DNA of 64,000 bases from a phage. Below the pieces are notes generated by a model that worked only from the letters and a program-made list of their open reading frames with translations, was not told the origin of the DNA and did no database searches. Positions 5,111 to 60,989 of the stretch are shown here, one piece after another (position 1 is the stretch's first letter; each line of letters begins with the position of its first letter). Made by a program: the position numbers and the translations under genes. The DNA is taken from assembly GCA_012455605.1 (NCBI GenBank), contig GCA_012455605.1_3618.1; one strand, 5' to 3'.

Positions 5111-7540
5111 ATGAGCATGTGGTCGTTCGATTTTGAGTCATCCGGTTTGCTGGAAGACCCAGATCTTTATTATCACTGCGGTCTGTTTAAAGAGTTGAAT
5201 AAGAACCGTTTTATGCTGTTCCTTCCTCTAAATGACCGCACACACTACTCCGAGGAGGATATAGAAAAGGCTAAGAACTTCATTCTGGCAAAGAAAACTC
5301 TTTATAAAGATTTTGAAGTTCGCATAGCAGATTTTTCGGAGTTGGAAGGTTGGCTTACAGGAAATTCTGACTGGTCACCAACAGCTTTGAACTGCCATAA
5401 CTGCTACAGTTATGACTTTATGCTGATGGAAAGATTATCCGGTATTCATTTTGATATGTTCCGTGATCCTAAATGTATGGGGACTATCAACGACCACCAG
5501 GTTAACCTGTTCGATACGTTGGCAATGAGCCGAATCTTGTGGCCTGATCGCCCTTTACCGAAAGGTTGTCCGGACTCTGTATTCAACCCGGTTACTAAAA
5601 AAATGCAGCCTGTTGGTCCTCACGGCCTTATGGCATGGGGCTACGCTCTTGGTAACCAGAAAGTTCAAATTGATGACTGGCGCGATCTTCCGTTGTGGAA
5701 GTATGTGGATCGTGTATTCGAGGACGTTATCATCCAGGAGCTGCTCTGGAAAGAGCTGGTAGCGGAATCAAAAGGTGTATTCTACGGCAAATCTGACATG
5801 CAGAACTTTATGTACGATCCTGCCAAAGAGAAGCCGAAAGGATTCAAGAAGATCACCTGGAAGAACGCATTACGTCGAGGCATGCTGCAGCACTTCCTGA
5901 TGGAGCTGCAGGCCCGTCAGGGCGTATACTTCGACATAGATGGAGCTATTGCTTTACGTGACCGTTGCGATGCGTGGATGAAAGAAATCGCTGATCGTGT
6001 TGAACCACAACTGCCTTTAAAAGAACTGTCAATGTCTCAGCGGCCCAAGTTCCCTGAAAAGCCGTTTAACCAAGACGGGACAATCTCTAATAATGGTTGG
6101 AAATGGTTAAAAGATAAGCTTGGCTATCCTGTAGACATGAGCGCTTTAGAGTTCAAAGCCCCGCCTAAGAGAGCATTTACCTCTACAGGAGATGTCAGCA
6201 AGATGGGGATAAAATGGTGTGAAGAGATGGGATGCAAAGACCCCGATAAGATGGCTGATTTCTTGAGAGGCTATATTAAGGGCACTTCCACACCACACCC
6301 TTTGCCTAAAGAGTTGATGGATCAGGCAATAAGTGATCTACAGCAGAAGCGAATGCCGGACTGCAAGATACCTATGAAAATCAGCAACCAGGACGACATT
6401 AAGCGATACCTGATCAGTGCTGGCTGGCTTCCGACAATGTGGAGAACTAAGGATGTAACTAAAGACAGCAAGAAGAAAGCTTTACCTGATGCAGATGTTG
6501 ATGCACGAGTATATGCATATATGGACGAGCTTTTGGAGTCAGAGTATTGTGACCTAATTATCAACTTCTGGAACAAAACTGATGCTAAGTTCCAGACAAC
6601 CGTGCACAAGTTCCGAAGCTTTCCTAACTCCGAAAGGATTAAAAAGGAAGTATTCGGGAAAATACGTAGAAAAGCCAGGGCACTTATTACTTCTCCGCAA
6701 CTGAAAGATACGTTTGGACACCTATGCCCAAATCTTGAAAAATTGAACGGAGAGATGGCTAAAGATATCGTCTTGTGGTTATCATTGCGAAACCGCAGAT
6801 CGGTCCTTGATCCAATCAAGGAGGATAAGGTTGATACTGGTCTTCTTAATCACCCACGTTTGAAGATTGACCATAAGCTTCCTGCTAAAAGCTCTGGATT
6901 AACAAACACTTCCAGACAGAAACACAGTATTTGTGCAAACATGCCTAAACCATCTCCTAAAGTAGTTATGGGTAAAGAGATGCGTAGTCTGTGGGGTGTT
7001 CCTCCAGGATACTTTGAGATCGGTATTGACGGGTCCAACTTAGAGCAGCTTATCGGGGCTTGGGGTGCCTTTGAGTTCGACAACGGCCTGTATTACGATG
7101 TTGTAAGTAACGGAGACGCACACCAAAACAATGCTGAGGCATATACAAAAGTAGCAGGCAGAGAGGTGTCTCGTAACGACGGTAAACCTATCACGTATGG
7201 GGTTATGTATGGGGCACAAAAAGATAAAGTTGCAGATATGCTGGACATCTCTCCAGAGTTGGGACAAAGGGTAATCGATGCACTCTGGGATGCCAACCCT
7301 GGTCTTAAGGGGCGTAAAGAAGATCTGGAGAAATTCTGGGAAGCAACGGGTAAGAAGTTTATCTACTCTTTTGATGGTCATGCTATCTGGACCCGATCTA
7401 AACACTCTTTACTTAATGCATACCAACAAAATGGCGGCGCATCGTTGTGTGACTTAGTTGGGATACTCATGCACCATCAAATGGTGAAGCGTGGGTGGTA
7501 CGATGAAGGTGTTCGTCGTATTATTTATTACCATAAATAA
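5111..7540 (+). CDS. DNA polymerase, family A, with 3'-5' exonuclease domain
   Basis: Exo I FDFESSG, Exo II YSYDF; motif A-like IDGSNLEQL; motif B-like RNDGKPITYGVMYGAQ (T7 Pol-like). Confidence 0.8.
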   Translation: MSMWSFDFESSGLLEDPDLYYHCGLFKELNKNRFMLFLPLNDRTHYSEEDIEKAKNFILAKKTLYKDFEVRIADFSELEGWLTGNSDWSPTALNCHNCYSYDFMLMERLSGIHFDMFRDPKCMGTINDHQVNLFDTLAMSRILWPDRPLPKGCPDSVFNPVTKKMQPVGPHGLMAWGYALGNQKVQIDDWRDLPLWKYVDRVFEDVIIQELLWKELVAESKGVFYGKSDMQNFMYDPAKEKPKGFKKITWKNALRRGMLQHFLMELQARQGVYFDIDGAIALRDRCDAWMKEIADRVEPQLPLKELSMSQRPKFPEKPFNQDGTISNNGWKWLKDKLGYPVDMSALEFKAPPKRAFTSTGDVSKMGIKWCEEMGCKDPDKMADFLRGYIKGTSTPHPLPKELMDQAISDLQQKRMPDCKIPMKISNQDDIKRYLISAGWLPTMWRTKDVTKDSKKKALPDADVDARVYAYMDELLESEYCDLIINFWNKTDAKFQTTVHKFRSFPNSERIKKEVFGKIRRKARALITSPQLKDTFGHLCPNLEKLNGEMAKDIVLWLSLRNRRSVLDPIKEDKVDTGLLNHPRLKIDHKLPAKSSGLTNTSRQKHSICANMPKPSPKVVMGKEMRSLWGVPPGYFEIGIDGSNLEQLIGAWGAFEFDNGLYYDVVSNGDAHQNNAEAYTKVAGREVSRNDGKPITYGVMYGAQKDKVADMLDISPELGQRVIDALWDANPGLKGRKEDLEKFWEATGKKFIYSFDGHAIWTRSKHSLLNAYQQNGGASLCDLVGILMHHQMVKRGWYDEGVRRIIYYHK

Positions 7541-7674: not shown

Positions 7675-8181
7675 ATGGCTAGATCAGTTGATTATCACGG
7701 ATATACCGTGTTTGATGATGGAACAATACCTTTATCGAAACGTGATCATACAACAATGTTTTGTTTTGATAATGGTCGAGGTTACCTTTGCGTAACCATG
7801 TTCATCGAAGGGAAGCAGTGCACAAAAGGTGTCCACCACTTGGTTGCCGAATGCTTTGTATCAAACCCTGATCCTGAAAGGCTCACATGGGTGAACCATA
7901 AGGACGGAAACAAATACAACAATGCATACTGGAACCTTGAATGGACCACCCCTGGTGGAAATATCAAACACGCTTATGATAATGACCTCAGAGTAAGGCC
8001 AGTCGGTGAGTATAATGCCAACGCTGTGCTGACCGAGGATGAGGTAACGGAGATTTGCGAGCTGTTACAGAGTGGTCTACGACAATGCGAGATTAGGGAT
8101 CTTGGGTACCCTTATGAGACGGTCAGAGCCATAAAGCAAAGAAGACAGTGGAAACATATCTCTAAAAACTACACCTGGTAG
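7675..8181 (+). CDS. HNH homing endonuclease (HNH_3/NUMOD-like)
   Basis: VNHKDGNKYNNAYWNLEW HNH motif; N-terminal YHGYTVFDDG; sits directly after the polymerase gene. Confidence 0.75.
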   Translation: MARSVDYHGYTVFDDGTIPLSKRDHTTMFCFDNGRGYLCVTMFIEGKQCTKGVHHLVAECFVSNPDPERLTWVNHKDGNKYNNAYWNLEWTTPGGNIKHAYDNDLRVRPVGEYNANAVLTEDEVTEICELLQSGLRQCEIRDLGYPYETVRAIKQRRQWKHISKNYTW

Positions 8182-8373: not shown

Positions 8374-8730
8374 TTGGATGAGTACCAACTTCAGGTCCCT
8401 GACACACCTAAGTATAAGACTGTGTACACCTTCGACACAATCGAAGAACTGGAAGCATTTAAGGCAGAGCAGGAGGCCAAACTTCATGTGTTCGACGGTC
8501 ATAAGTACAAAAAGGCACGCAAGGATGAGGACGGAAACGAAGTGGTTGACAGAGACGGAAACACGGTGTACGATCCTATCCTGAACGATGACGGAAAGCT
8601 TGAACTTATCTGGAGCCCTGTGGGTGAAATGGTGGTGCATTGCTTCTGGCAAGCTTCTAAAATGATGGGCGTCCCGTTCCAGATCACAGGTGAATACCTG
8701 TGTGGTCGTAATTGGGGTGATTGTCACTAA
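8374..8730 (+). CDS. hypothetical protein
   Basis: 118 aa ORF; no recognisable motif. Confidence 0.4.
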   Translation: MDEYQLQVPDTPKYKTVYTFDTIEELEAFKAEQEAKLHVFDGHKYKKARKDEDGNEVVDRDGNTVYDPILNDDGKLELIWSPVGEMVVHCFWQASKMMGVPFQITGEYLCGRNWGDCH

Positions 8731-29699: not shown

Positions 29700-30260
29700 C
29701 AGAACTAGACCCTCTTCAGATATTTCTGGCTGACTCTTCAGGTCTGTGTGGGAAAAGCCAACCTCTCCGGCGGGAAGGGGGGGTCAATTAAAAAATTTAC
29801 GGGGTATATGAAGCGCTCTTCAGGTAAGGCATGTATTATGGGATGAAACCCTCTTCAGGCAATGATATTTGTGGGTGTGATATTTGCTGGAAAGCCAGAT
29901 ATGACGGGACTCCCGGCGGGGCAGGGGTAGTACAGGAAGGGAAAATATGGGGATGTAGTTGGGGAAATTGATCAGACAGGTGGAGTATAGTATATGTTAC
30001 AAGTATGTTAAATATGGATGGTGAATATCTATAGGATTTGTGTGTAAAATCAAAGACTTAAGTGGTGTTGTGGTATTTTCTATAAATAATTCAAGTTTAA
30101 TAGGGAATATTTGTCAGAAAGGTAGGTTCAGGTTATTTAAAGTTGTATTTCAGATGCATGTTTACAGAAGCAGGTAACCCCCCTCCCCCTTCGGCTACCA
30201 TTCACCTTTTCCTCTAACTGGTACTTAAACACTTATTCAGACTCTTCAGGTTATCACCCA
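29700..30260. repeat. CTCTTCAG(G) repeat cluster with G-rich inverted repeats
   Basis: Copies at 29712, 29735, 29816, 29851, 30242 (a sixth at 30890); CGGCGGGAAGGGGGGG near 29770 versus CCCCCCTCCCCCTTCGGC near 30178. Confidence 0.55.
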
Positions 30261-30601
30261 TATATCATATGGCAGTGACTGGTGTCCTCAGGCCCCTCTT
30301 TCGTCACCCGTCCGCTTCGCCATGCTAATGCCATAGCCAGTGGTTCGGTTGTTCACCCTGTTCACTCAGGTGTATCTCCATACCCCTTCAAACCGAAGAG
30401 AACAGAAAACCCGAATTACTCGGTAAAAGAAAAGAGAAGAACTTAATTTTATCAGGATAGGCAAGAATGTCAAGGCATGACTGCTCACTAAACAAGCAAA
30501 CAGTCATGTGTGGGAGGTAAGTGATTGTGGTGGTAGGAAATTTAGTTGAAAGATGTGTTATAGGTGCTCCCAGCACTTTTAGCCGGGCAGCTAGTTGTGT
30601 G

Positions 30602-30817
30602 TCAGTCCAGCGGTTCATCCCCTACTTCACTGAAATCGATGTTCATGGTCTCCTCCCAACCATCGATCTCAGCACAAGAGTGGAGATCTTTAGGACTTAC
30701 TCCCAAAGCCTCAGCAACAGCGTCTATATTTAACACCTCTGGCAGGTATGATTCATCGAATTCAAGGTAAATCAGGCCACGAGTGTTGTCAGCTCCACCA
30801 AATATTTCTATCTTCAT
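30602..30817 (-). CDS. hypothetical acidic protein
   Basis: 71 aa; last gene of the minus-strand block. Confidence 0.4.
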   Translation of the reverse strand: MKIEIFGGADNTRGLIYLEFDESYLPEVLNIDAVAEALGVSPKDLHSCAEIDGWEETMNIDFSEVGDEPLD

Positions 30818-30938
30818 AAAATCTCCTCTGGAAATGAGAGTGTGAACTGGGTTTTATACGTTCCAATACGTTGGAATTATGCACGTTTGCCTCTTCAGGC
30901 CATGCTTTAGCATGAGGAACCTGTGTGGGCTCGGTGCT

Positions 30939-31352
30939 TCATAGTCTACCACCTCTGAACTCTTCGTGCTCCGGCATGATAGAGAACCAGATATCTACGA
31001 TGTCTTCCCACGTTAGGTCATCAGCCTCAGGATCTACCTGGAGCGAAGATGGAGAATATTCAGAATCGAAGTTTTCCTCTTTCACTGGCTCAGCCAAGGG
31101 ACATATAGTCACTCCTTTGGATGTCTCTTCAGATGCATGTGTGTTTATCATGTTCCACCCGTGAGTATTCCGGCAACAGCCGCTATGGACGTAATGATCA
31201 TCAGGATCACCACTAAAACTTCGGACAATGTTCTCATTGTGTATCCTATATTCTCTAAACGATGTGTGGATAATATCACGAGGGCGGTAATGTGTCAACA
31301 GAAACGCCGCGAGGGTTTGGTTAAAATCCGAGCGTATGGTGATTTGGGTCAA
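30939..31352 (-). CDS. hypothetical protein
   Basis: 137 aa. Confidence 0.45.
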   Translation of the reverse strand: MTQITIRSDFNQTLAAFLLTHYRPRDIIHTSFREYRIHNENIVRSFSGDPDDHYVHSGCCRNTHGWNMINTHASEETSKGVTICPLAEPVKEENFDSEYSPSSLQVDPEADDLTWEDIVDIWFSIMPEHEEFRGGRL

Positions 31353-31511
31353 AACGGACGTGCGTTCTCGCTACGCTCGAAAGAGAGACTTGTTTGTAGA
31401 AAGCTCTTAAACGCTCTGTAACGAGATTAACTACCAGAGGTATGCAATCGTGCACCAGATAAAGAAAAGGACGCCATAGAGCGTCCTAGGTGTCTTAAAT
31501 TTGATATTTTG

Positions 31512-31823
31512 CTATACCCACGAGGGCTTATCAAGGTTGGAGTAGCTGAAAGGTGTCAAAAGGTGACTGTCAAAATCTCTCAAACTATCCAGATCTTTTT
31601 CCTCGTCCTGACACCATCTGTGCCTACATTTATTGTTGTAGTGCATAGAATGCATAGCGTTCTGCAACTTAACAGGCACAAGTGATTCGGGAGTAGATAG
31701 TATTGTTGGGTATGCCAGAACCACTTCAAACAGTGGAAACACATCGAAACTAAAGTCTACCTCTGCAGAGGTTGATGGCATGTAGGAGTATTTAGCCGCC
31801 TTTGTAGACATAATCCACCTCAC
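31512..31823 (-). CDS. hypothetical protein
   Basis: 103 aa. Confidence 0.4.
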   Translation of the reverse strand: MRWIMSTKAAKYSYMPSTSAEVDFSFDVFPLFEVVLAYPTILSTPESLVPVKLQNAMHSMHYNNKCRHRWCQDEEKDLDSLRDFDSHLLTPFSYSNLDKPSWV

Positions 31824-32146
31824 ACAGGTTTGATAATACCTTTACCGAATAACTCTTCGTATCTAATCTTATCCGGATCCCACTCCTGGATAATTTCGAA
31901 GACAATATCCAACCCTGGGATAATCACTTCTCCAGTGTCAAGTTTGGCAAGAACAAAACCAGAAGGTTGAATGGTTTCCCAGTTGCGACGATTGGAATAG
32001 AAGACCTCGAAAATATCACCGACCTTGATCTGTTGATCAAGATGTTCAAGGTTCTCTTTCATGTAGACGCAGCGTATTTTTCGTGCAGGCCATAGACCAC
32101 CTGCATCACGTTCATTCAATTCTTTTACAGTGATCGGTATACCCAT
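31820..32146 (-). CDS. hypothetical protein
   Basis: 108 aa; start/stop overlap with the downstream gene. Confidence 0.45.
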   Translation of the reverse strand: MGIPITVKELNERDAGGLWPARKIRCVYMKENLEHLDQQIKVGDIFEVFYSNRRNWETIQPSGFVLAKLDTGEVIIPGLDIVFEIIQEWDPDKIRYEELFGKGIIKPV

Positions 32147-54766: not shown

Positions 54767-55374
54767 TCTTCTTGGGCCTCTTTAGCATCAATATACTTGC
54801 ACACAATCTCCGATGCACACTCCCAAGGTGCACCTTCAGGGTTTACAACATCAAACTCAACCCCTTTTATTCCGTTCTTTTCCAGACTTAGATAGGTTCT
54901 GGAATCATTTCCCCAGTCATATCCTGCACGGTGAATACGGAACAACAACAGATCTCCACCTGTGCTGTATGCGTACTCGCTAAGGCATGCCAGCTCCTCT
55001 TTGAATCCCCCATCGGAGTAAACAATAACCCCTTTACCTTCAGGGAAATCTTTCTTCAAAGATGCGACTGCGGCTTTACCGAAAGCATCTTCACCAAAGA
55101 TAGGTTTAATCAGATTTTCACTACAATGGATCATCCATTCTCGCGGAGAAACATGCTTGCCGTCTATCATTAAGAAAGGGCAAGGCTCTTCTTTGTAGTG
55201 GCGGTCATAAAGTGCATTCCAGAGTTGAGGAGTTACACCAGCTGCCTTAATTGCCACACTGAAGAGCATTTCCTTAACCTCACGGTGGTGTGAGTTAGGA
55301 ATAGCTTCCAACAAGAGATCTGCAATGTGATCCTTACCACTGCTGGGTGGGGCGTTAAGAACAATAATATCCAT
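54760..55374 (-). CDS. deoxynucleoside monophosphate kinase-like
   Basis: P-loop-like N-terminus IVLNAPPSSGKDHIADLL, similar to phage dNMP kinases. Confidence 0.6.
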   Translation of the reverse strand: MDIIVLNAPPSSGKDHIADLLLEAIPNSHHREVKEMLFSVAIKAAGVTPQLWNALYDRHYKEEPCPFLMIDGKHVSPREWMIHCSENLIKPIFGEDAFGKAAVASLKKDFPEGKGVIVYSDGGFKEELACLSEYAYSTGGDLLLFRIHRAGYDWGNDSRTYLSLEKNGIKGVEFDVVNPEGAPWECASEIVCKYIDAKEAQEEC

Positions 55375-55577
55375 TAAAAACCTCCGTGGTATTCTTCAAC
55401 TGCATCAATAATACTTTTACACTTATCTACCAGCTCGTTAGCCACTACAGCATCGTCTTCCCAAACAGCCTCCTCAATCTGATCAAGCAATGATCGCATC
55501 TTACTCATCATTTCTGGGATAAAGTTTTCTGAAAAGCTGTCTGGAATTGTTAACTCTAGTGTCATTTCGGTCTCCAA
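55374..55577 (-). CDS. hypothetical acidic protein
   Basis: 67 aa. Confidence 0.4.
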   Translation of the reverse strand: METEMTLELTIPDSFSENFIPEMMSKMRSLLDQIEEAVWEDDAVVANELVDKCKSIIDAVEEYHGGF

Positions 55578-55592
55578 TCATACTATGCGTTA

Positions 55593-56051
55593 TTAGAAGT
55601 TTGTTTTTACACGTCCCTTCTCATCAACCTCGTTGTTAGCTAAAAGCGTTACAAAGTCTGTGAAACGAACATGAAGAACCCTTTTCTTATCAAGGTATCC
55701 TAAAGCCACCCCTGAGAAATTTAGCATCAAAGGGGCTAAAGAAGCTCTGGCACTGAAATGCTGTTGTTCTACCCTTCCAACACCCTTAGTGTAGGATGGG
55801 TTAAGATTGTAAGTTCTGAATCCCAGTTTTGTTGGAGCTTTAGAATTAAAAACGACTTTATAGCGTTTCTTACTCAACTTATGCTCCAGGATAAGCATTC
55901 CCTTATCACCTTTGATAAGTTGAAAATCTGTAAAGTGCTCTTTTAAGACGAAAGGTAGTGCCAGTCCCATCGCCTGTCCTCTTTGTACCGCTGTCTCACC
56001 AAAAGCTTTTGCATCAGTAAGTTCTTTGGTCAAGTCTATGCTTTTGATCAT
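55593..56051 (-). CDS. hypothetical protein
   Basis: 152 aa. Confidence 0.45.
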   Translation of the reverse strand: MIKSIDLTKELTDAKAFGETAVQRGQAMGLALPFVLKEHFTDFQLIKGDKGMLILEHKLSKKRYKVVFNSKAPTKLGFRTYNLNPSYTKGVGRVEQQHFSARASLAPLMLNFSGVALGYLDKKRVLHVRFTDFVTLLANNEVDEKGRVKTNF

Positions 56052-56862
56052 ACCTGGTCTCCAAAATGTATTGTAGTTCTTTCTTACCTATACTCTTCAT
56101 TCCAGCAGTCTTACCTGCTTCTTCTTGAAAAGAAGAATAGCATTCAGCAAACACTCTGTCAACACCGTTAACTAAAGATTTTATGAAATATGTTGATTCT
56201 TCAGATTTTGGGTCATCATCCCCCAATACTTTTCCAGCATTATACCCAACACGTCTTACACAGAAGTCGTAGTCATCTGGTGTGCTAAAAGAAAATAACT
56301 TATTCTCTCCAATCTCTACAGGATCCCTATTGCACGCCTTTTTCTCCCAAATTTGGAAAACACATGGCACGTCATAAGGTTTGCCATTAAGTAAAAACGA
56401 ATTCTTAGGGCACCTTTCGCTGTAGACAAGGTGCATCGACATGTCCAGTTTGTTTGCAAAAAATATTTTTTCAAATGTCCGTGGCAAGATGAAGGCTATA
56501 GCCCCTCCAAGCTCTAGCAATGATGCACAATGGTTAAAGAATTTGCAAGCTAAGGATGAATTCTTGCCAAATGGTGGGTTACCTATGAAGACATCTGCCT
56601 TGGGATGCACCTCCAAGAAGTTTGCCTGAATGCACGGTGTTGGTCCTTCAAATTCAGGATCTGGTACTAAATCGTACGACAGTATCTCTGAAAATAGTTT
56701 TGAAAAAGAACCCCTTCCAGCAGAAGGCTCAACGTATGCACAATTCCCATACTTATCTTTTACTTTACCAACAAGATATTCTGCATACTCAGGGTTTGTG
56801 TAGTATTTGTCGTTGGACTCTTTCTTGCTCAAAGTGCCTCCAAAAGGAAAAGGGAGGCGCAA
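56014..56862 (-). CDS. N6-adenine DNA methyltransferase (gamma-class, M.TaqI-like motif order)
   Basis: YYTNPEYAEYLV (TP motif), YVEPSAGRGSF (motif I), DVFIGNPPFG (motif IV). Confidence 0.7.
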   Translation of the reverse strand: MRLPFPFGGTLSKKESNDKYYTNPEYAEYLVGKVKDKYGNCAYVEPSAGRGSFSKLFSEILSYDLVPDPEFEGPTPCIQANFLEVHPKADVFIGNPPFGKNSSLACKFFNHCASLLELGGAIAFILPRTFEKIFFANKLDMSMHLVYSERCPKNSFLLNGKPYDVPCVFQIWEKKACNRDPVEIGENKLFSFSTPDDYDFCVRRVGYNAGKVLGDDDPKSEESTYFIKSLVNGVDRVFAECYSSFQEEAGKTAGMKSIGKKELQYILETRYDQKHRLDQRTY

Positions 56863-56877
56863 GCCTCCCTATAATTG

Positions 56878-57861
56878 TTAGATTATCTGAATCAGGGTAT
56901 TTTTCATTTCTTCTCTGGTGCGGATGTTGTTACGGTCACGAACAACAGATCCACAACCTTCGCAGCGGTATGTTTTAAATGCACTCAGTTGAGTATATGC
57001 CAAAGCTTCTTCCTCGTGAAGGTGTTCTCCACCACATCGTGGGCAACGAACCTTTGGCTCCTCGTCCTGGTAGTACAATGACATGTTTGGGTGCTGCTTA
57101 GCAAACGGGCGAGCCAGCAAATACAGTCCTTCCAGAGACAGGATATCACCAACATTATACTCCCGCATCTGTTTAAATGCCTCAAGATCGCCATGGACAC
57201 ACTTGATCCACATTTCAAATGTGTGATCAATCAGTTTCTGTCGGGCCAGTTGGAAGTATTTGCATGCATACTCCAAAGTGTTTGCATTCAAACGGAATGC
57301 CTTCTTGATCATTTTAAGGGTGTCAACCTCTTTGTAGGGGCTTGTTGGAGGCAACCCGTGAAATGCAAATCGTTGGTTGGCCCACCCGCAGTCAAAACCT
57401 GAATTGTGGGCTACTGCGACATCGCATTTATCCAGATAATACCACAAATCCTGAATCAATTCGAGATCATTGTGAATATCCTCATCCCACATTTTGTAAT
57501 CGGGAAGAGCGCAGTCAACCACACTAGGGCTGTCTAACCACTTACCTGCGAAAGTTAGCATATAAGGCATAACTTCAATACCACAGGTTTGAATGTTGGT
57601 CTTATAGTGCCCAAAGAACCAGCCGTTTGTTGGGGATGTCTCTGTATCATACACCCAAACTTTAGCGCCTTTGTGCTCTTCAAGGAAGCGCTCCGTTGCT
57701 TCTCCTACAATCTCTGACATATTCTCTTGTGCACGTTTAAGCTGTAGTCGGATCCAGCTCTCACGTGACTCACGACCTAAAAATTCACGAGCAATTTGTC
57801 TATTAGTGTATCCCTGTTGCTTTAGTGTTAAAATTTGCTCAAGAGTTAACTTTGTCATCAT
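56878..57861 (-). CDS. DEDD-family 3'-5' exonuclease with N-terminal HTH and C-terminal zinc ribbon
   Basis: Exo I VYDTETS, Exo II AHNSGFDCGW; N-terminal GYTNRQIAREF HTH-like; C-terminal CPRCGG...CEGCGS. Confidence 0.65.
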   Translation of the reverse strand: MMTKLTLEQILTLKQQGYTNRQIAREFLGRESRESWIRLQLKRAQENMSEIVGEATERFLEEHKGAKVWVYDTETSPTNGWFFGHYKTNIQTCGIEVMPYMLTFAGKWLDSPSVVDCALPDYKMWDEDIHNDLELIQDLWYYLDKCDVAVAHNSGFDCGWANQRFAFHGLPPTSPYKEVDTLKMIKKAFRLNANTLEYACKYFQLARQKLIDHTFEMWIKCVHGDLEAFKQMREYNVGDILSLEGLYLLARPFAKQHPNMSLYYQDEEPKVRCPRCGGEHLHEEEALAYTQLSAFKTYRCEGCGSVVRDRNNIRTREEMKNTLIQII

Positions 57862-57873
57862 CGTTAAGATTCC

Positions 57874-58095
57874 TTAGTAAAACTGAAGAATGTCTTTTAA
57901 AGCGAAGTCACGATATTCGCCCTTGTCTACATCGAAGGCACGCATCAACCACTGCTCTTCTTTATGATACTCTGTAGAACCAAACCATAAATTAGGCTCA
58001 GTAACGCAGCGATCTGCAACAACACCTTTCCAGTTACGGTATTTCATCCTGATCAGGACCGAGTCGCAAGGATTGAATACCTTTTTCATCCCCAT
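57874..58095 (-). CDS. hypothetical protein
   Basis: 73 aa. Confidence 0.4.
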   Translation of the reverse strand: MGMKKVFNPCDSVLIRMKYRNWKGVVADRCVTEPNLWFGSTEYHKEEQWLMRAFDVDKGEYRDFALKDILQFY

Positions 58096-58639
58096 AGAAA
58101 TCTCTCTCCTCAGTTTTCTTTATAAACTCCTGCATGTAGAACTCAATAGCCTCATGCTTGGTGCACTCCGGATCAATGACAAGATTGAGATCTGATTCTG
58201 CTCGTGCAATAATCGTAGCTTTAGAGCATCGCCTCAAGAACTTTGTCATATCATCTCTGTAGTTTTTGTGGAGCGGGAAGTCGCTGTAGTCTTTCTCCAA
58301 ATAGTCAGCAATCCGGCGCAACGCCTCTGATAAACTGCAATCTGTATACTCGTTACAGTATTTCATCCAGTATTTAAGCACATACCCCTCAAAGGTATTA
58401 GTGCATTGAGACAAAACACCCCTGCAACGACCAGTCAGATGATCATGATCTAAACAAGGCTTACGAAGTGGCTCGCACAAGATCGGATCAAGACCATCCT
58501 GCTCCTCTGACAATTCTTTTCGAAAGTTGGCTATGTCCTTAGAATCTTTTAACCACCCGTTATGAACTGGGGCTTTGACAGCTTTCTTTCTTATTTTACG
58601 CTTTGCGATAATCCCTCCAGATGAGCCCTGCCTATCCAA
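58034..58639 (-). CDS. recombination endonuclease VII-like
   Basis: CLDHDHLTGRCRGVLSQCTN matches the Endo VII zinc/HxDH core. Confidence 0.7.
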   Translation of the reverse strand: MDRQGSSGGIIAKRKIRKKAVKAPVHNGWLKDSKDIANFRKELSEEQDGLDPILCEPLRKPCLDHDHLTGRCRGVLSQCTNTFEGYVLKYWMKYCNEYTDCSLSEALRRIADYLEKDYSDFPLHKNYRDDMTKFLRRCSKATIIARAESDLNLVIDPECTKHEAIEFYMQEFIKKTEERDFYGDEKGIQSLRLGPDQDEIP

Positions 58640-59220
58640 TAAGCATCTGCGAGATCGGCCTTACCTTGTACCAAATTGATCCCGTCTAGGAACCCAGGTT
58701 CAGATACTTCGCAGGCCTTAACCATCAACTTTTTATCCATTGTAACAGGTTTCTTCACAGTATGCTCTTTACCTGTCTTTTTGTCAAGCTTTTTCTTCTC
58801 CTCAAAAGCAAGTTCTTCAGGAAGATGACTACGAGCAAACTTTTTGGCAGTTGTTGGTGTCACTGTGTGGACCTTAAACAGGCCGTCATTTTCACAATCA
58901 GCTAAGGCATCCCAAAGCATAATTTCAAGACCGTAAAACAACCCAGCCAGTTCACGTGTGGCATCCCCGCGTGATCCAAAGGAAAGCCCTTCCATAACCA
59001 CGGTGTCAACGTGATGCGTGTGGATATAATATCTGACCTGTTTGCAGATCCAGTCAATACGCTCAGCAGCTGTTGCAAAAGAAACCGTCCCTGGTTTCTT
59101 CTCTTTTGCAGATGAGCTTTGAGTTCGTAACACAACCTTATGAACAGGCTTTCCATCGTCCCATACAACGCAAGCTGTGTGTGTCAACGACTGGTCTATG
59201 GATAATAGACGCTCTCTCAT
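58591..59220 (-). CDS. RuvC-like Holliday junction resolvase
   Basis: LSIDQSLTHTACVVWD (first Asp), VVMEG (Glu), DAYWIGRAHLE (C-terminal Asp) in RuvC-like order. Confidence 0.55.
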   Translation of the reverse strand: MRERLLSIDQSLTHTACVVWDDGKPVHKVVLRTQSSSAKEKKPGTVSFATAAERIDWICKQVRYYIHTHHVDTVVMEGLSFGSRGDATRELAGLFYGLEIMLWDALADCENDGLFKVHTVTPTTAKKFARSHLPEELAFEEKKKLDKKTGKEHTVKKPVTMDKKLMVKACEVSEPGFLDGINLVQGKADLADAYWIGRAHLEGLSQSVK

Positions 59221-59552
59221 GCTTCCTCATCCTCCTCTCCTTCATCAGGAGCATAAGCCTTATCTTTGAACAAGACGAGAGAGCAAAGCTTAACATCTGT
59301 TTCCACACTGGTGAACATGCATAACCGCTCGCCCTCAATCAACTCACAATCCTCTTTTAAAACAGCAGACCATACACGGTCATCTGCGTAATCATCTGTG
59401 TACAGGATGTATGAAATAGTGTCATCTTCATACAACCGCCACATACCTGTGGCAACAATAAATGTATTTTTTGTTTTAATGGTCCCTGTTGTATGATCAT
59501 CCTCAAAAACAGCTTCCATAATTGCACTATCTACAGAATTTTTAGTCATCAA
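59217..59552 (-). CDS. hypothetical protein
   Basis: 111 aa. Confidence 0.45.
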   Translation of the reverse strand: MMTKNSVDSAIMEAVFEDDHTTGTIKTKNTFIVATGMWRLYEDDTISYILYTDDYADDRVWSAVLKEDCELIEGERLCMFTSVETDVKLCSLVLFKDKAYAPDEGEEDEEA

Positions 59553-60688
59553 ATTGCTCCAACATTTCTAAGAACGTTAACAAGTTTTGTTTGATCATTG
59601 AATGTTCGCTTCATATACAAACAGTCAAAAATTATACTCATCCATTGACCTACGGAAATTCTACGATCAACACCATTGAAGTCAGTATACTTAACAACAC
59701 CTTTCGGGAACCACTTCTTGTACTGATCAATAATAGCCACCCACATCTCCTTTGGAGTGCTGCACTGAGACAGTAGGTAGAATGCTGAGGCATCCCCGAA
59801 CTTACCCTTACCGATAAGTCCTTGATACGGCTTGATGTTGTCAGCAGAGTCACCACACAGCATTTGGTATCCGAAGAACAGCATTCCGTAACCACCAACC
59901 TCTCCATTAGGCTTCATGAAGATGTTACCCATACCGTTATCGATCAGCATAGGGGTTTCCCTTACAAAATCTCCCTTATCGTTTCGCATGGGATCGAACA
60001 CAAGCCCCGGTAGTGTTCTTTGGTCCTTATCAATAGAGATAATAAACTTGTTGAACTTACCTGTTTTTTGGTAGTGGTTCCAACCTTCAAATTGCTGGAT
60101 AGCTAACCAGTCATCAGCCTCTATACCGTTGATCACTTGAGCATTATACTGCTTTTGGAGATACTGTCTTGCATCTCCAAGCAGCAGTGGTCGAAGAGTA
60201 TTGTTACGGTTGGCTTTATATCTTTCCGGCATGGGAAGATCTAGTCTGAAATTACCTGTGCCCCCAAGTACCCCCACGCACCGATCTTCCGGAATACCGA
60301 GATAATTAAGGACTGCATTAGCTTTACACTTAATTGTGTGCAAGCAGTTCTCTACAGGATCAGGGGTTTGGATATCCAAGACATCGAAATCTTCCCGTGT
60401 CCACGGAATAAACTCCTTGCCAGCCTTTTTACATGCAGCTTCACGGTTGGTATTCTCAGCTTTTAACCAACCACCAACGGTGTTCTTCTGCCGCCCCCAG
60501 AACTCTGTTCGTGTTTTAAACATCTTCTTACGTCCGGAGGCTTTGTGTGTTACCTCAATTGTCCTTTTTTCACAACTTGCTGCAGCTTGATATGCAACCT
60601 GATCGAAGTCATAATAAACTATAGCGTCAGGTTCAAGAAGATCAGCCAGACAATCTATGGACTCAATAAGTGGATATTCTCTACTCAA
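59549..60688 (-). CDS. 5'-3' exonuclease / flap endonuclease (FEN family)
   Basis: YKANR, GIEADD and H3TH GDSADNIKPYQGLIGKG motifs. Confidence 0.85.
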   Translation of the reverse strand: MSREYPLIESIDCLADLLEPDAIVYYDFDQVAYQAAASCEKRTIEVTHKASGRKKMFKTRTEFWGRQKNTVGGWLKAENTNREAACKKAGKEFIPWTREDFDVLDIQTPDPVENCLHTIKCKANAVLNYLGIPEDRCVGVLGGTGNFRLDLPMPERYKANRNNTLRPLLLGDARQYLQKQYNAQVINGIEADDWLAIQQFEGWNHYQKTGKFNKFIISIDKDQRTLPGLVFDPMRNDKGDFVRETPMLIDNGMGNIFMKPNGEVGGYGMLFFGYQMLCGDSADNIKPYQGLIGKGKFGDASAFYLLSQCSTPKEMWVAIIDQYKKWFPKGVVKYTDFNGVDRRISVGQWMSIIFDCLYMKRTFNDQTKLVNVLRNVGAI

Positions 60689-60989
60689 AGACCCTCCTGT
60701 TAGTTATTCTGCAAGATGGTTGGATGCTGTAATGGAATGCATCATCACTTTCTGCAATAAGTGACTCAACATCCCAATACTTTTCAAAAAGGAACGGATT
60801 AGAACCCCAGTGATGAGTTATTTTCATCAAGGAGTCTGGTATCAGATAACCAGAGATCTTAACTACATCGCCAGGTTGAATTGTGTTTTCATGAAGGTTG
60901 CTTGCCTTCTTCAGGATCATACCTTTATGATTCTCGTTTGCATACAACTGGACAATATCTTTATCTTCAACAATAAAAATTTTAAGCAT
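60681..60989 (-). CDS. hypothetical protein
   Basis: 102 aa. Confidence 0.45.
   Translation of the reverse strand: MLKIFIVEDKDIVQLYANENHKGMILKKASNLHENTIQPGDVVKISGYLIPDSLMKITHHWGSNPFLFEKYWDVESLIAESDDAFHYSIQPSCRITNRRVFE

What the first reader, a model, noticed from the sequence alone, without database searches (positions are those of the whole stretch)
56878..57861. DEDD exonuclease with an N-terminal sigma/LuxR-like HTH and a C-terminal zinc ribbon
This is an unusual domain combination (GYTNRQIAREF HTH, DnaQ-like Exo I/II motifs, CPRCGG...CEGCGS). It could be a proofreading or processing nuclease with sequence-specific recruitment, or an anti-defence nuclease.
Basis: partly seen in the sequence, partly recalled or inferred. 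Interest (0 to 1): 0.45.

Follow-up and report, generated by a model that had tools for sequence, protein, structure and literature searches.

The report
Phage 3'-5' exonuclease with HTH and zinc ribbon
This gene of an rV5-like E. coli phage encodes a DNA-trimming enzyme flanked by a small DNA-binding head and a zinc-binding tail; the layout is real, but it is the standard design of a large, already annotated and biochemically untested phage family, not a one-off oddity.

Summary
They are an N-terminal three-helix HTH (residues ~5-46), a DEDD exonuclease core (~66-263) and a C-terminal Cys4 zinc ribbon (~268-315).

The window is an rV5-like Vequintavirus. The protein is identical to that of phage V5 and matches PHROG 403 over its full length (E 2e-110). 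The family has about 3,460 clusters at 50% identity and occurs in about 3% of phage records. The exonuclease plus ribbon is constant, while the N-terminal DNA-binding head is swapped (HTH variants, zinc ribbon, NUMOD1-like) or absent.

The combination is therefore not unusual. The most likely role is an accessory, DNA-tethered 3'-5' DNA exonuclease working alongside the neighbouring 5'-3' exonuclease, RuvC-like and endonuclease VII genes. A dedicated polymerase proofreading subunit is less likely. No biochemical characterisation was found.

The parts
56878..57861 (-). Complete CDS, 327 aa: HTH, DEDDy exonuclease and zinc ribbon (PHROG 403)
   Evidence: ORF. PHROG 403 full length, E 2e-110. 100% identical to the phage V5 protein in DQ832317.1.
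57871..57875 (-). Ribosome-binding site AAGGA, 9 nt before the ATG; it overlaps the TAA stop of the upstream 73-aa ORF
   Evidence: Sequence read.
57724..57861 (-). N-terminal three-helix HTH (residues 1-46; helices 7-15, 20-28 and the start of 34-62). Its turn, 'LGRESRES', is 3 residues longer than the family consensus.
   Evidence: Model. Family N-terminal profile against solved HTH domains. Pfam counts. Leave-close-relatives-out score of 27.9 bits. Alignment.
57667..57723 (-). Continuation of helix 3 as a linker (residues 47-65); lower confidence (pLDDT ~76) and variable in the family
57073..57666 (-). RNase H-like DEDDy 3'-5' exonuclease core (residues 66-263)
57640..57648 (-). Exo I motif D72-T-E74
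   Evidence: Both residues invariant in 152 of 152. Codons read.
57391..57408 (-). Exo II motif H152-N-S-G-F-D157
   Evidence: D157 in 152 of 152, H152 in 148, N153 in 145. One family member (P0102) carries an intein exactly here.
57145..57159 (-). Exo III motif Y235-N-V-G-D239 (Y-x3-D, the DEDDy type)
   Evidence: Y235 and D239 in 152 of 152. The family profile aligns here to T7 DNA polymerase residues 165-186.
56917..57060 (-). C-terminal Cys4 zinc ribbon (residues 268-315): knuckles C273/C276 and C300/C303, strands 281-289, 294-300 and 306-312, followed by conserved R308
   Evidence: C273 invariant (152 of 152); C276, C300 and C303 each present in 151 of 152. Model pLDDT 94-97 in this region. 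Weak matches to many zinc-ribbon Pfam families.
56851..56870 (-). Intrinsic-terminator-like hairpin (8-bp stem with 6 G-C pairs, 4-nt loop, T-rich tail) starting 8 nt after the stop codon
   Evidence: sequence.
58034..58639 (-). Context: endonuclease VII gene, two genes upstream on the same strand
   Evidence: Pfam Endonuclease_7. PHROG 423.
58591..59220 (-). Context: RuvC-like Holliday-junction resolvase gene
   Evidence: PHROG 159, E 4.5e-39.
59549..60688 (-). Context: 5'-3' (FEN-type) exonuclease gene
   Evidence: PHROG 107, E 5.7e-71. Annotated as 'putative 5'-exonuclease' in phage AlexBoehm.

Best explanation
The gene encodes a stand-alone, metal-dependent 3'-to-5' DNA exonuclease of the DEDDy class. 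Its catalytic core is a free-standing relative of the proofreading domains of family-B and T7-type DNA polymerases.

Shown here: all catalytic residues are intact (D72, E74, D157 and D239 for the two metal ions, Y235 to position the attacking water). A Cys4 zinc ribbon is a fixed part of the enzyme. A small HTH sits at the N-terminus.

Inferred: the HTH and the ribbon, with its conserved basic residues after the second knuckle, hold the enzyme on DNA. The enzyme trims 3' ends and flaps. It acts as an accessory partner of the co-transcribed 5'-3' exonuclease, RuvC-like resolvase and endonuclease VII. Together they would process branched replication and recombination intermediates and cut DNA, including host DNA recycled into the adjacent nucleotide-metabolism module. 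I do not think it is the obligatory proofreading subunit of the phage polymerase.
For: Catalytic and zinc-binding residues are invariant or nearly so across about 150 diverse homologues.

The N-terminal profile matches solved DNA-binding HTH domains.

The N-terminal head is exchanged between HTH variants, CxxC ribbons and NUMOD1-like modules, or is missing (22 of 151). Cores carrying different heads are still up to ~50% identical, which is what is expected of an accessory tether.

The gene order 5'-3' exonuclease, endonuclease VII, then this gene recurs in rV5-like phages, phiKMV-like Pseudomonas phages and a Stenotrophomonas autographivirus (PMC3765740, PMC11596505). Among 63 IMG/VR loci with at least 3 kb of upstream sequence, a FEN-type exonuclease lies upstream on the same strand in 16 and endonuclease VII in 6.

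In rV5 the genes downstream are a methyltransferase, a dNMP kinase, thymidylate synthase and ribonucleotide reductases.

Against a proofreading-subunit role: the rV5 PolA (5111-7540) is about 50 kb away on the other strand and has its own T7-like exonuclease domain with all four carboxylates. Family members also occur in phages with no annotated DNA polymerase, namely mycobacteriophage Girr and, in the 21 kb non-structural half examined, Flavobacterium phage mumin9-1.

Published data on cluster F1 mycobacteriophages: Girr gp37, which I verified as a family member, is cytotoxic when overexpressed (PMC11075535). Deleting the DnaQ-like gene gp35 of phage NormanBulbieJr leaves plaques normal (bioRxiv 10.64898/2025.12.12.693979). 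I did not check the gp35 sequence myself.
Against: No biochemical data exist for any family member that I could find.

The linkage to other nucleases is a minority pattern (about 25% of loci for FEN, about 10% for endonuclease VII). In Girr the gene lies between the lysis cassette and the integrase. In mumin9-1 it lies next to methyltransferases. A single shared pathway is therefore not established.

DNA rather than RNA as substrate is inferred from fold ranking only. DNA binding by the HTH and the ribbon is inferred, not shown. I could not inspect the model coordinates, so the position of the ribbon relative to the active site is unknown.
Confidence: 0.5

Rival explanations
1. It is a trans-acting proofreading subunit, as the database name 'DNA polymerase exonuclease subunit / DnaQ-like' implies. 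The protein would dock on the phage PolA, or on the host replicase in phages without a polymerase, and remove misincorporated 3' nucleotides.
For: The core fold is closest to polymerase proofreading domains. PHROG 403 and many GenBank records use this name. In the rV5-type PolA the Exo III tyrosine is replaced by arginine ('RVFED' against T7 'YNVQD'), and the same holds in relatives 80% and 59% identical. The polymerase's own editing could therefore be weakened.
Against: PolA keeps all four Exo carboxylates. The gene is about 50 kb from PolA and on the opposite strand. phiKMV-like and T4-like phages whose polymerases carry their own exonuclease domains also have the gene. Phages without an annotated polymerase carry it too. 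The DnaQ equivalog models are missed by a wide margin, the match covers only the Exo II region, and Exo III is Y-x3-D rather than H-x4-D. Deleting the cluster F1 counterpart gives normal plaques (bioRxiv 10.64898/2025.12.12.693979).
Confidence: 0.17
2. It is a conflict nuclease. The swappable DNA-binding head would direct the exonuclease to particular DNA, such as host or competitor-phage DNA or DNA made by defence systems like retron or DRT products. The role would be anti-defence or inter-phage competition rather than housekeeping.
For: The N-terminal modules are of the kinds used by transposases and homing endonucleases (HTH_23, HTH_38, Sleeping Beauty-type HTH, InsA and IS1595 ribbons, NUMOD1, Myb), and they turn over quickly relative to the core. 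In temperate cluster F1 phages the gene sits in the accessory region between lysis and integrase, is toxic when overexpressed and is dispensable in the laboratory (PMC11075535; bioRxiv 10.64898/2025.12.12.693979). In rV5 and mumin9-1 it is next to DNA methyltransferases.
Against: There is no direct evidence. The only PADLOC matches are generic DEDDh hits on the Exo II region. The gene is syntenic and nearly identical across Vequintavirus genomes and sits in replication and nuclease modules in autographiviruses, which is unlike typical fast-turnover anti-defence genes. Fifteen percent of members have no head at all.
Confidence: 0.12
3. It is an RNA 3'-end trimming enzyme (RNase D or RNase T-like), acting for example on the phage's own tRNAs or on host RNA.
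For: DEDDy enzymes include RNase D and Rrp6. The phage encodes a tRNA cluster, an RNA ligase and a polynucleotide kinase. Pfam RNase_T is the only exonuclease family the rV5 sequence touches (E 3e-4, below gathering score).
Confidence: 0.06

Closest known systems
PHROG 403 and the phage clade of Pfam PF13482 (RNase_H_2), called cluster F.23 'from various phages' by Majorek et al. 2014 (PMC3985635). Examples: phiKMV-like JG068 gp24, PpY1 gp30, LKA1 Q0E5Y0, ICP1 gp189 and mycobacteriophage 'DnaQ-like' proteins such as Girr gp37.
   Same: This is the family the protein belongs to. It matches the profile over its full length. It has the same DEDDy motifs and Cys4 ribbon, and a BFVD structural match to LKA1 Q0E5Y0 at E 1e-28.
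   Different: The rV5 sequence is a divergent member. It does not itself reach PF13482 even at E 10, whereas 140 of 150 relatives do at E 0.001. Its HTH has a 3-residue longer turn, shared by ICP1 gp189 and several other members. The family is predicted, not characterised.
3'-5' proofreading exonuclease domains of family-B DNA polymerases (archaeal PolB, Pol epsilon, Pol alpha, E. coli Pol II, RB69 gp43) and of T7 DNA polymerase
   Different: It is a free-standing protein with no polymerase domain. It carries an HTH and a zinc ribbon that these domains lack. Sequence identity is only 11-17%.
DnaQ, the epsilon subunit of bacterial DNA polymerase III
   Different: DnaQ is DEDDh (H-x4-D in Exo III), whereas this protein is DEDDy. 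It scores 26.8 bits against an NCBIfam cut-off of 196. It has no equivalent of the epsilon C-terminal polymerase-binding tail and has a zinc ribbon instead.
Zinc-ribbon-bearing phage HNH endonucleases (Xu et al. 2012, PMC3592412)
   Same: Another class of phage nucleases in which an extra zinc ribbon is fused at the N- or C-terminus of the catalytic domain (abstract of PMC3592412, seen).
   Different: The catalytic fold and chemistry are unrelated (HNH endonuclease against DEDD exonuclease). This is an analogy only.

Membership tests
DEDD (DnaQ-like) 3'-5' exonuclease superfamily | Four invariant acidic residues in three motifs (Exo I DxE, Exo II D, Exo III D) | tested here: met
   D72, E74, D157 and D239 are present and invariant in 152 of 152 representatives.
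DEDD (DnaQ-like) 3'-5' exonuclease superfamily | RNase H-like alpha/beta fold | tested here: met
DEDD (DnaQ-like) 3'-5' exonuclease superfamily | Metal-dependent 3'-5' exonuclease activity | not testable with these tools
   Needs an enzyme assay. No published assay for the family was found.
DEDDy subclass (polymerase proofreading domains, RNase D, WRN) | Tyr four residues before the last Asp (Y-x3-D) in Exo III | tested here: met
   Y235-N-V-G-D239, with both residues invariant.
DnaQ / Pol III epsilon subunit | DEDDh Exo III motif (H-x4-D) | tested here: not met
   Exo III is Y-x3-D.
DnaQ / Pol III epsilon subunit | Reaches the curated equivalog score | tested here: not met
   NF004316 scores 26.8 bits against a cut-off of 196. 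TIGR01406 scores 23 against 222.7. The match covers residues 134-209 only.
DnaQ / Pol III epsilon subunit | Stable complex with a replicative polymerase | not testable with these tools
   The gene lies about 50 kb from PolA on the other strand. Family members occur in phages without an annotated polymerase.
PHROG 403 / phage PF13482 clade | Full-length profile match | tested here: met
   PHROG 403, E 2.1e-110, residues 2-326 on profile positions 2-320 of 321.
PHROG 403 / phage PF13482 clade | Pfam PF13482 (RNase_H_2) domain hit | tested here: inconclusive
   The rV5 protein gives no PF13482 hit at E up to 10. 140 of 150 homologues found at E 1e-38 or better do hit it. Membership is therefore by transitive homology.
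PHROG 403 / phage PF13482 clade | C-terminal Cys4 ribbon after the exonuclease core | tested here: met
   C273 invariant; C276, C300 and C303 each in 151 of 152 representatives. The same is seen in Girr gp37 and the phiKMV-like protein; ICP1 gp189 has a C-x-C first knuckle.
   The rV5 sequence has no GerE or Sigma70_r4 hit. Its best hits are DUF7626, HTH_38 and HTH_7, all below gathering score. The model has three helices. Among 46 related N-termini, HTH_23 (22) and HTH_38 (21) outnumber GerE (8) and Sigma70_r4_2 (9).
[quoted passage not shown] | Significant profile similarity to solved DNA-binding HTH domains | tested here: met
   The family N-terminal profile matches 2lvs at 1.4e-8, Sleeping Beauty PAI at 5e-7, NarL at 6e-6 and Tn3 resolvase at 4e-5. 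The rV5 N-terminus scores 27.9 bits against the profile rebuilt without its close relatives. Caveat: I selected the profile members by eye for an HTH-like pattern.
Zinc ribbon | Two CxxC knuckles on a three-stranded beta sheet | tested here: met
   C273xxC276 and C300xxC303. Strands at 281-289, 294-300 and 306-312, with pLDDT 94-97.
Zinc ribbon | Bound zinc ion | not testable with these tools
   Needs metal analysis of the purified protein.

The most novel reading that the evidence does not exclude
The family is a targetable exonuclease. Its rapidly exchanged N-terminal DNA-binding heads (HTH variants, transposase-type zinc ribbons, NUMOD1-like, Myb) would direct a constant DEDDy-plus-ribbon engine to specific DNA. 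Phages would use it in conflicts, either to destroy host, competitor-phage or defence-generated DNA, or to exclude superinfecting phages, rather than for housekeeping.
Probability: 0.12. Interest if true: 0.6.

Novelty: already known. Interest (0 to 1): 0.28.

Why it matters
The gene itself has been in GenBank since the phage V5 genome was deposited, and it is routinely labelled a DnaQ-like or polymerase exonuclease subunit. What this check adds is a correction and a sharper description of a very common phage family.

- It is present in about 3% of phage records, including ICP1, phiKMV-like therapeutic phages and hundreds of mycobacteriophages.
- It is a PolB-type DEDDy enzyme, not epsilon.
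- It always carries a Cys4 ribbon.
- Its DNA-binding head is modular.
- It is probably not a replisome subunit.

That matters for annotation pipelines. It also marks the family as an inexpensive biochemical target, because no member appears to have been assayed. It is not a surprising or new kind of system.

Tried and rejected
- Single-sequence Pfam, PDB, NCBIfam and PADLOC searches gave only weak, sub-threshold matches: RNase_T at E 3e-4, DnaQ at 19-27 bits, and generic zinc ribbons. Taken alone they would have suggested an orphan.
- The first word-indexed homologue search returned only 9 proteins. The exhaustive representative search and a profile search were needed.
- The afdb50 fold library was not available.
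- The search for related loci on genomes failed with alignment A1. With A2 it returned 58 loci, mostly short MAG contigs. I did not analyse their context, so 'phage-restricted' is an impression, not a result.
- Neighbour detection with single rV5 proteins was insensitive. BLAST clustering and iterated HMMs showed only a minority linkage to FEN and endonuclease VII. I therefore dropped the idea of a universal nuclease operon.
- Homing-endonuclease reading, considered because of the NUMOD1 and transposase-type heads. Rejected because the catalytic domain is an exonuclease and the gene is syntenic and 98-99% conserved across Vequintavirus genomes.
- Pseudo-enzyme reading. Rejected because all catalytic residues are intact.
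- Literature searches for the rV5 or Vequintavirus gene, ICP1 gp189, PHROG 403, PF10108 and DEDDy plus zinc ribbon found no functional study.

Full report
**What is there.** The window is an rV5-like Vequintavirus genome. A 5.7-kb stretch around the finding is 98.5-99.2% identical to the listed E. coli phages of this genus and at least 90% identical to 121 records in all. The protein is 100% identical to the product of phage V5 record DQ832317.1.

The ORF at 56878-57861 on the minus strand runs from ATG to TAA and encodes 327 aa. An AAGGA ribosome-binding site lies 9 nt before the start and overlaps the stop of the upstream 73-aa ORF. A strong hairpin followed by a T run (56851-56870) begins 8 nt after the stop.

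**Is it more than chance?** Yes. An exhaustive HMMER search of 1.84 billion representatives found 3,460 clusters at E below 1e-3 and 443 below 1e-30. In my alignment of 152 of them, D72, E74, D157, Y235, D239 and C273 are present in every sequence, and C276, C300 and C303 are each present in 151 of 152. H152, N153, F156, K209 and W218 are nearly invariant (confirmed).

The third motif is Y-x3-D, so the enzyme belongs to the DEDDy class, not the DEDDh class of DnaQ. One family member (P0102) has a LAGLIDADG-type intein inserted exactly in the Exo II motif (…IAHYG|C…HN|SGFD…). Inteins typically sit at functionally critical sites.

**Structure.** An AlphaFold2 model built on 93 homologues is confident (mean pLDDT 92.7, pTM 0.80). 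It contains:
- three N-terminal helices (7-15, 20-28, 34-62), the third continuing as a linker;
- an alpha/beta core (about 66-263);
- a three-stranded ribbon (281-312) carrying the two CxxC knuckles.

**The HTH.** For the rV5 sequence alone the HTH signal is weak (HTH_38 and HTH_7 below gathering score). Many family members have a textbook pattern (…G-l-S-x-R-x-I-A-k-x-L-g-x-p-K-S-T-V-x-d-y-L…). A profile of 46 such N-termini matches solved DNA-binding HTH domains: 2lvs 1.4e-8, Sleeping Beauty PAI 5e-7, NarL 6e-6, RhlR 1e-5 and Tn3 resolvase 4e-5.

The rV5 N-terminus scores 27.9 bits against this profile rebuilt without its five closest relatives. The label 'sigma/LuxR-like' is too narrow. 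HTH_23 and HTH_38 are the most frequent Pfam matches (22 and 21 of 46), against 8 for GerE and 9 for sigma region 4, and the model has three helices, not four. The rV5 subgroup, together with ICP1 gp189 and others, has a turn three residues longer (LGRESRES).

**The combination is not unusual.** PHROG 403 matches the protein end to end (E 2e-110). tblastn finds homologues in 1,528 of 50,697 phage records (Mycobacterium 549, Escherichia 218, Pseudomonas 214, Vibrio 95 and others), and 778 of them cover at least 80% of the query. 140 of 150 representatives match Pfam PF13482 and 55 match PF10108, the predicted PolB-like exonucleases. Majorek et al. 2014 already listed a PF13482 cluster 'from various phages' next to the PolB exonuclease cluster as uncharacterised (PMC3985635).

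The core and ribbon are constant, but the N-terminal head is modular. Of 151 representatives:
- 57 have the rV5-type HTH;
- 22 have no head;
- a few have CxxC…CxxC ribbons of the InsA or IS1595 type, or NUMOD1-like modules;
- the remainder have other short, mostly helical segments.

Cores carrying different head types are still up to about 50% identical, as similar as many pairs that share a head type. Heads have therefore been exchanged or lost repeatedly.

**Context in the window.** The gene is the last in a minus-strand run with this order:
- 5'-3' FEN-type exonuclease (59549-60688);
- a 111-aa protein of unknown function;
- RuvC-like resolvase (58591-59220);
- endonuclease VII (58034-58639);
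- a 73-aa protein of unknown function;
- this gene;
- the terminator-like hairpin.

After the hairpin come an N6-adenine methyltransferase, a dNMP kinase, thymidylate synthase and ribonucleotide reductases.

The order 5'-3' exonuclease, endonuclease VII, then this gene also occurs in phiKMV-like phages (JG068 gp21/22/24 in PMC3765740; PpY1 gp28/29/30 in PMC11596505) and in Stenotrophomonas phage P15. Across 63 metagenomic viral loci with enough upstream sequence, FEN is upstream on the same strand in 16 and endonuclease VII in 6. This is a recurrent but minority linkage. Elsewhere the context differs. In mycobacteriophage Girr the gene lies between the lysis cassette and the integrase. In Flavobacterium phage mumin9-1 it is gene 1, next to four methyltransferases.

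**Is it the polymerase's proofreader?** Probably not.
- The rV5 family-A polymerase (5111-7540, with a C-terminal piece at 8374-8730 beyond an HNH gene) lies about 50 kb away on the other strand. It aligns well with the T7 DNA polymerase exonuclease domain and keeps Exo I (D7, E9), Exo II (HNxxxYD102) and the Exo III aspartate.
- One point leaves the idea open. The Exo III tyrosine of T7 (YNVQD) is arginine in rV5 and its relatives (RVFED/RVWED).
- The family also occurs in phages whose polymerases carry their own exonuclease domains (phiKMV-like and T4-like CC2).
- It also occurs in phages with no annotated DNA polymerase (Girr; the non-structural half of mumin9-1).
- DnaQ membership fails on motif type and on curated scores.

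**Experimental data.** These exist only for distant members. Girr gp37, which I verified as having the DEDDy motifs and the ribbon, is moderately cytotoxic when overexpressed in M. smegmatis (PMC11075535). The DnaQ-like gp35 of the related phage NormanBulbieJr is likewise toxic, but its deletion gives normal plaques (bioRxiv 10.64898/2025.12.12.693979). I did not check the gp35 sequence. This fits an accessory enzyme rather than a core replisome part. I found no biochemical study of any member.

**Best explanation and rivals.** Shown: an intact DEDDy exonuclease core of polymerase-proofreading type, an obligatory Cys4 ribbon and an HTH head. Inferred: the substrate is DNA 3' ends, and the head and ribbon tether the enzyme to DNA. 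Also inferred is that in rV5 it complements the neighbouring 5'-3' exonuclease and the two junction-cutting endonucleases. That work would be processing replication and recombination intermediates and possibly recycling host DNA into the adjacent nucleotide pathway. Confidence is about 0.5. The rivals are:
- trans-acting proofreader (0.17);
- targeted conflict or anti-defence nuclease (0.12);
- RNA trimming (0.06).

**Verdict.** The useful outcome is a more accurate description: PolB-type DEDDy enzyme, not epsilon; invariant ribbon; modular head. The family is also large and has not been assayed.

Noticed in passing
window 55000-60700, compared with GenBank records MG065652, MG065655, MG065662 and others: Twenty records named 'Campylobacter phage' with host C. 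jejuni match this region of E. coli rV5-like phages (those listed are 98.5-98.9% identical). This suggests host misattribution or contamination in those deposits.
   Followed up: no
window 5111-7540, 7675-8181 and 8374-8730 (+ strand): The family-A DNA polymerase is split by an HNH endonuclease gene into an 809-aa part and a 118-aa C-terminal part. In its T7-like exonuclease domain the Exo III tyrosine is replaced by arginine (RVFED against T7 YNVQD), and relatives 80% and 59% identical show the same change.
   Followed up: partly
window 56851-56870, both strands: A perfect 8-bp GC-rich hairpin with a T-rich tail sits directly after the exonuclease stop. The mechanical ORF list starts the downstream methyltransferase at a TTG (56862) inside this hairpin. 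The start annotated in phage AlexBoehm corresponds to the TTG at 56832, behind a GGAGG.
   Followed up: partly
window 58034-58639 / 58591-59220, and 57874-58095 / 58034-58639 (- strand): Neighbouring nuclease genes overlap. The RuvC-like gene and endonuclease VII overlap by 49 nt, and endonuclease VII overlaps the 73-aa ORF by 62 nt, as the ORFs are listed. The true starts may differ.
   Followed up: no
protein P0102 (589 aa, metagenomic family member): A LAGLIDADG-type intein of about 272 aa is inserted exactly in the Exo II motif. It starts with Cys, ends with His-Asn and is followed by Ser: …IAHYG|CVTPG…FPCHN|SGFDIP….
   Followed up: partly
locus L096 (Flavobacterium phage mumin9-1) 91-996, and window 56014-56832: In mumin9-1 the family member is the first gene of the genome, beside four DNA methyltransferase genes. 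In rV5 a methyltransferase lies immediately downstream, and in ICP1 one lies about 3 kb downstream. This may be a loose association with DNA methylation genes.
   Followed up: no
window ~30000-32000: The GC skew changes sign from positive to negative here. This coincides with the switch from plus-strand to minus-strand genes.
   Followed up: no
loci L098-L155 (bacterial and archaeal genome collection): Only 58 loci in the collection of 185,579 species matched, using one peptide pattern. Most are MAG contigs, including candidate-phyla-radiation (CPR) bacteria and archaeal bins. Whether they are prophages, viral contigs placed in the wrong bin or true cellular copies was not examined.
   Followed up: no
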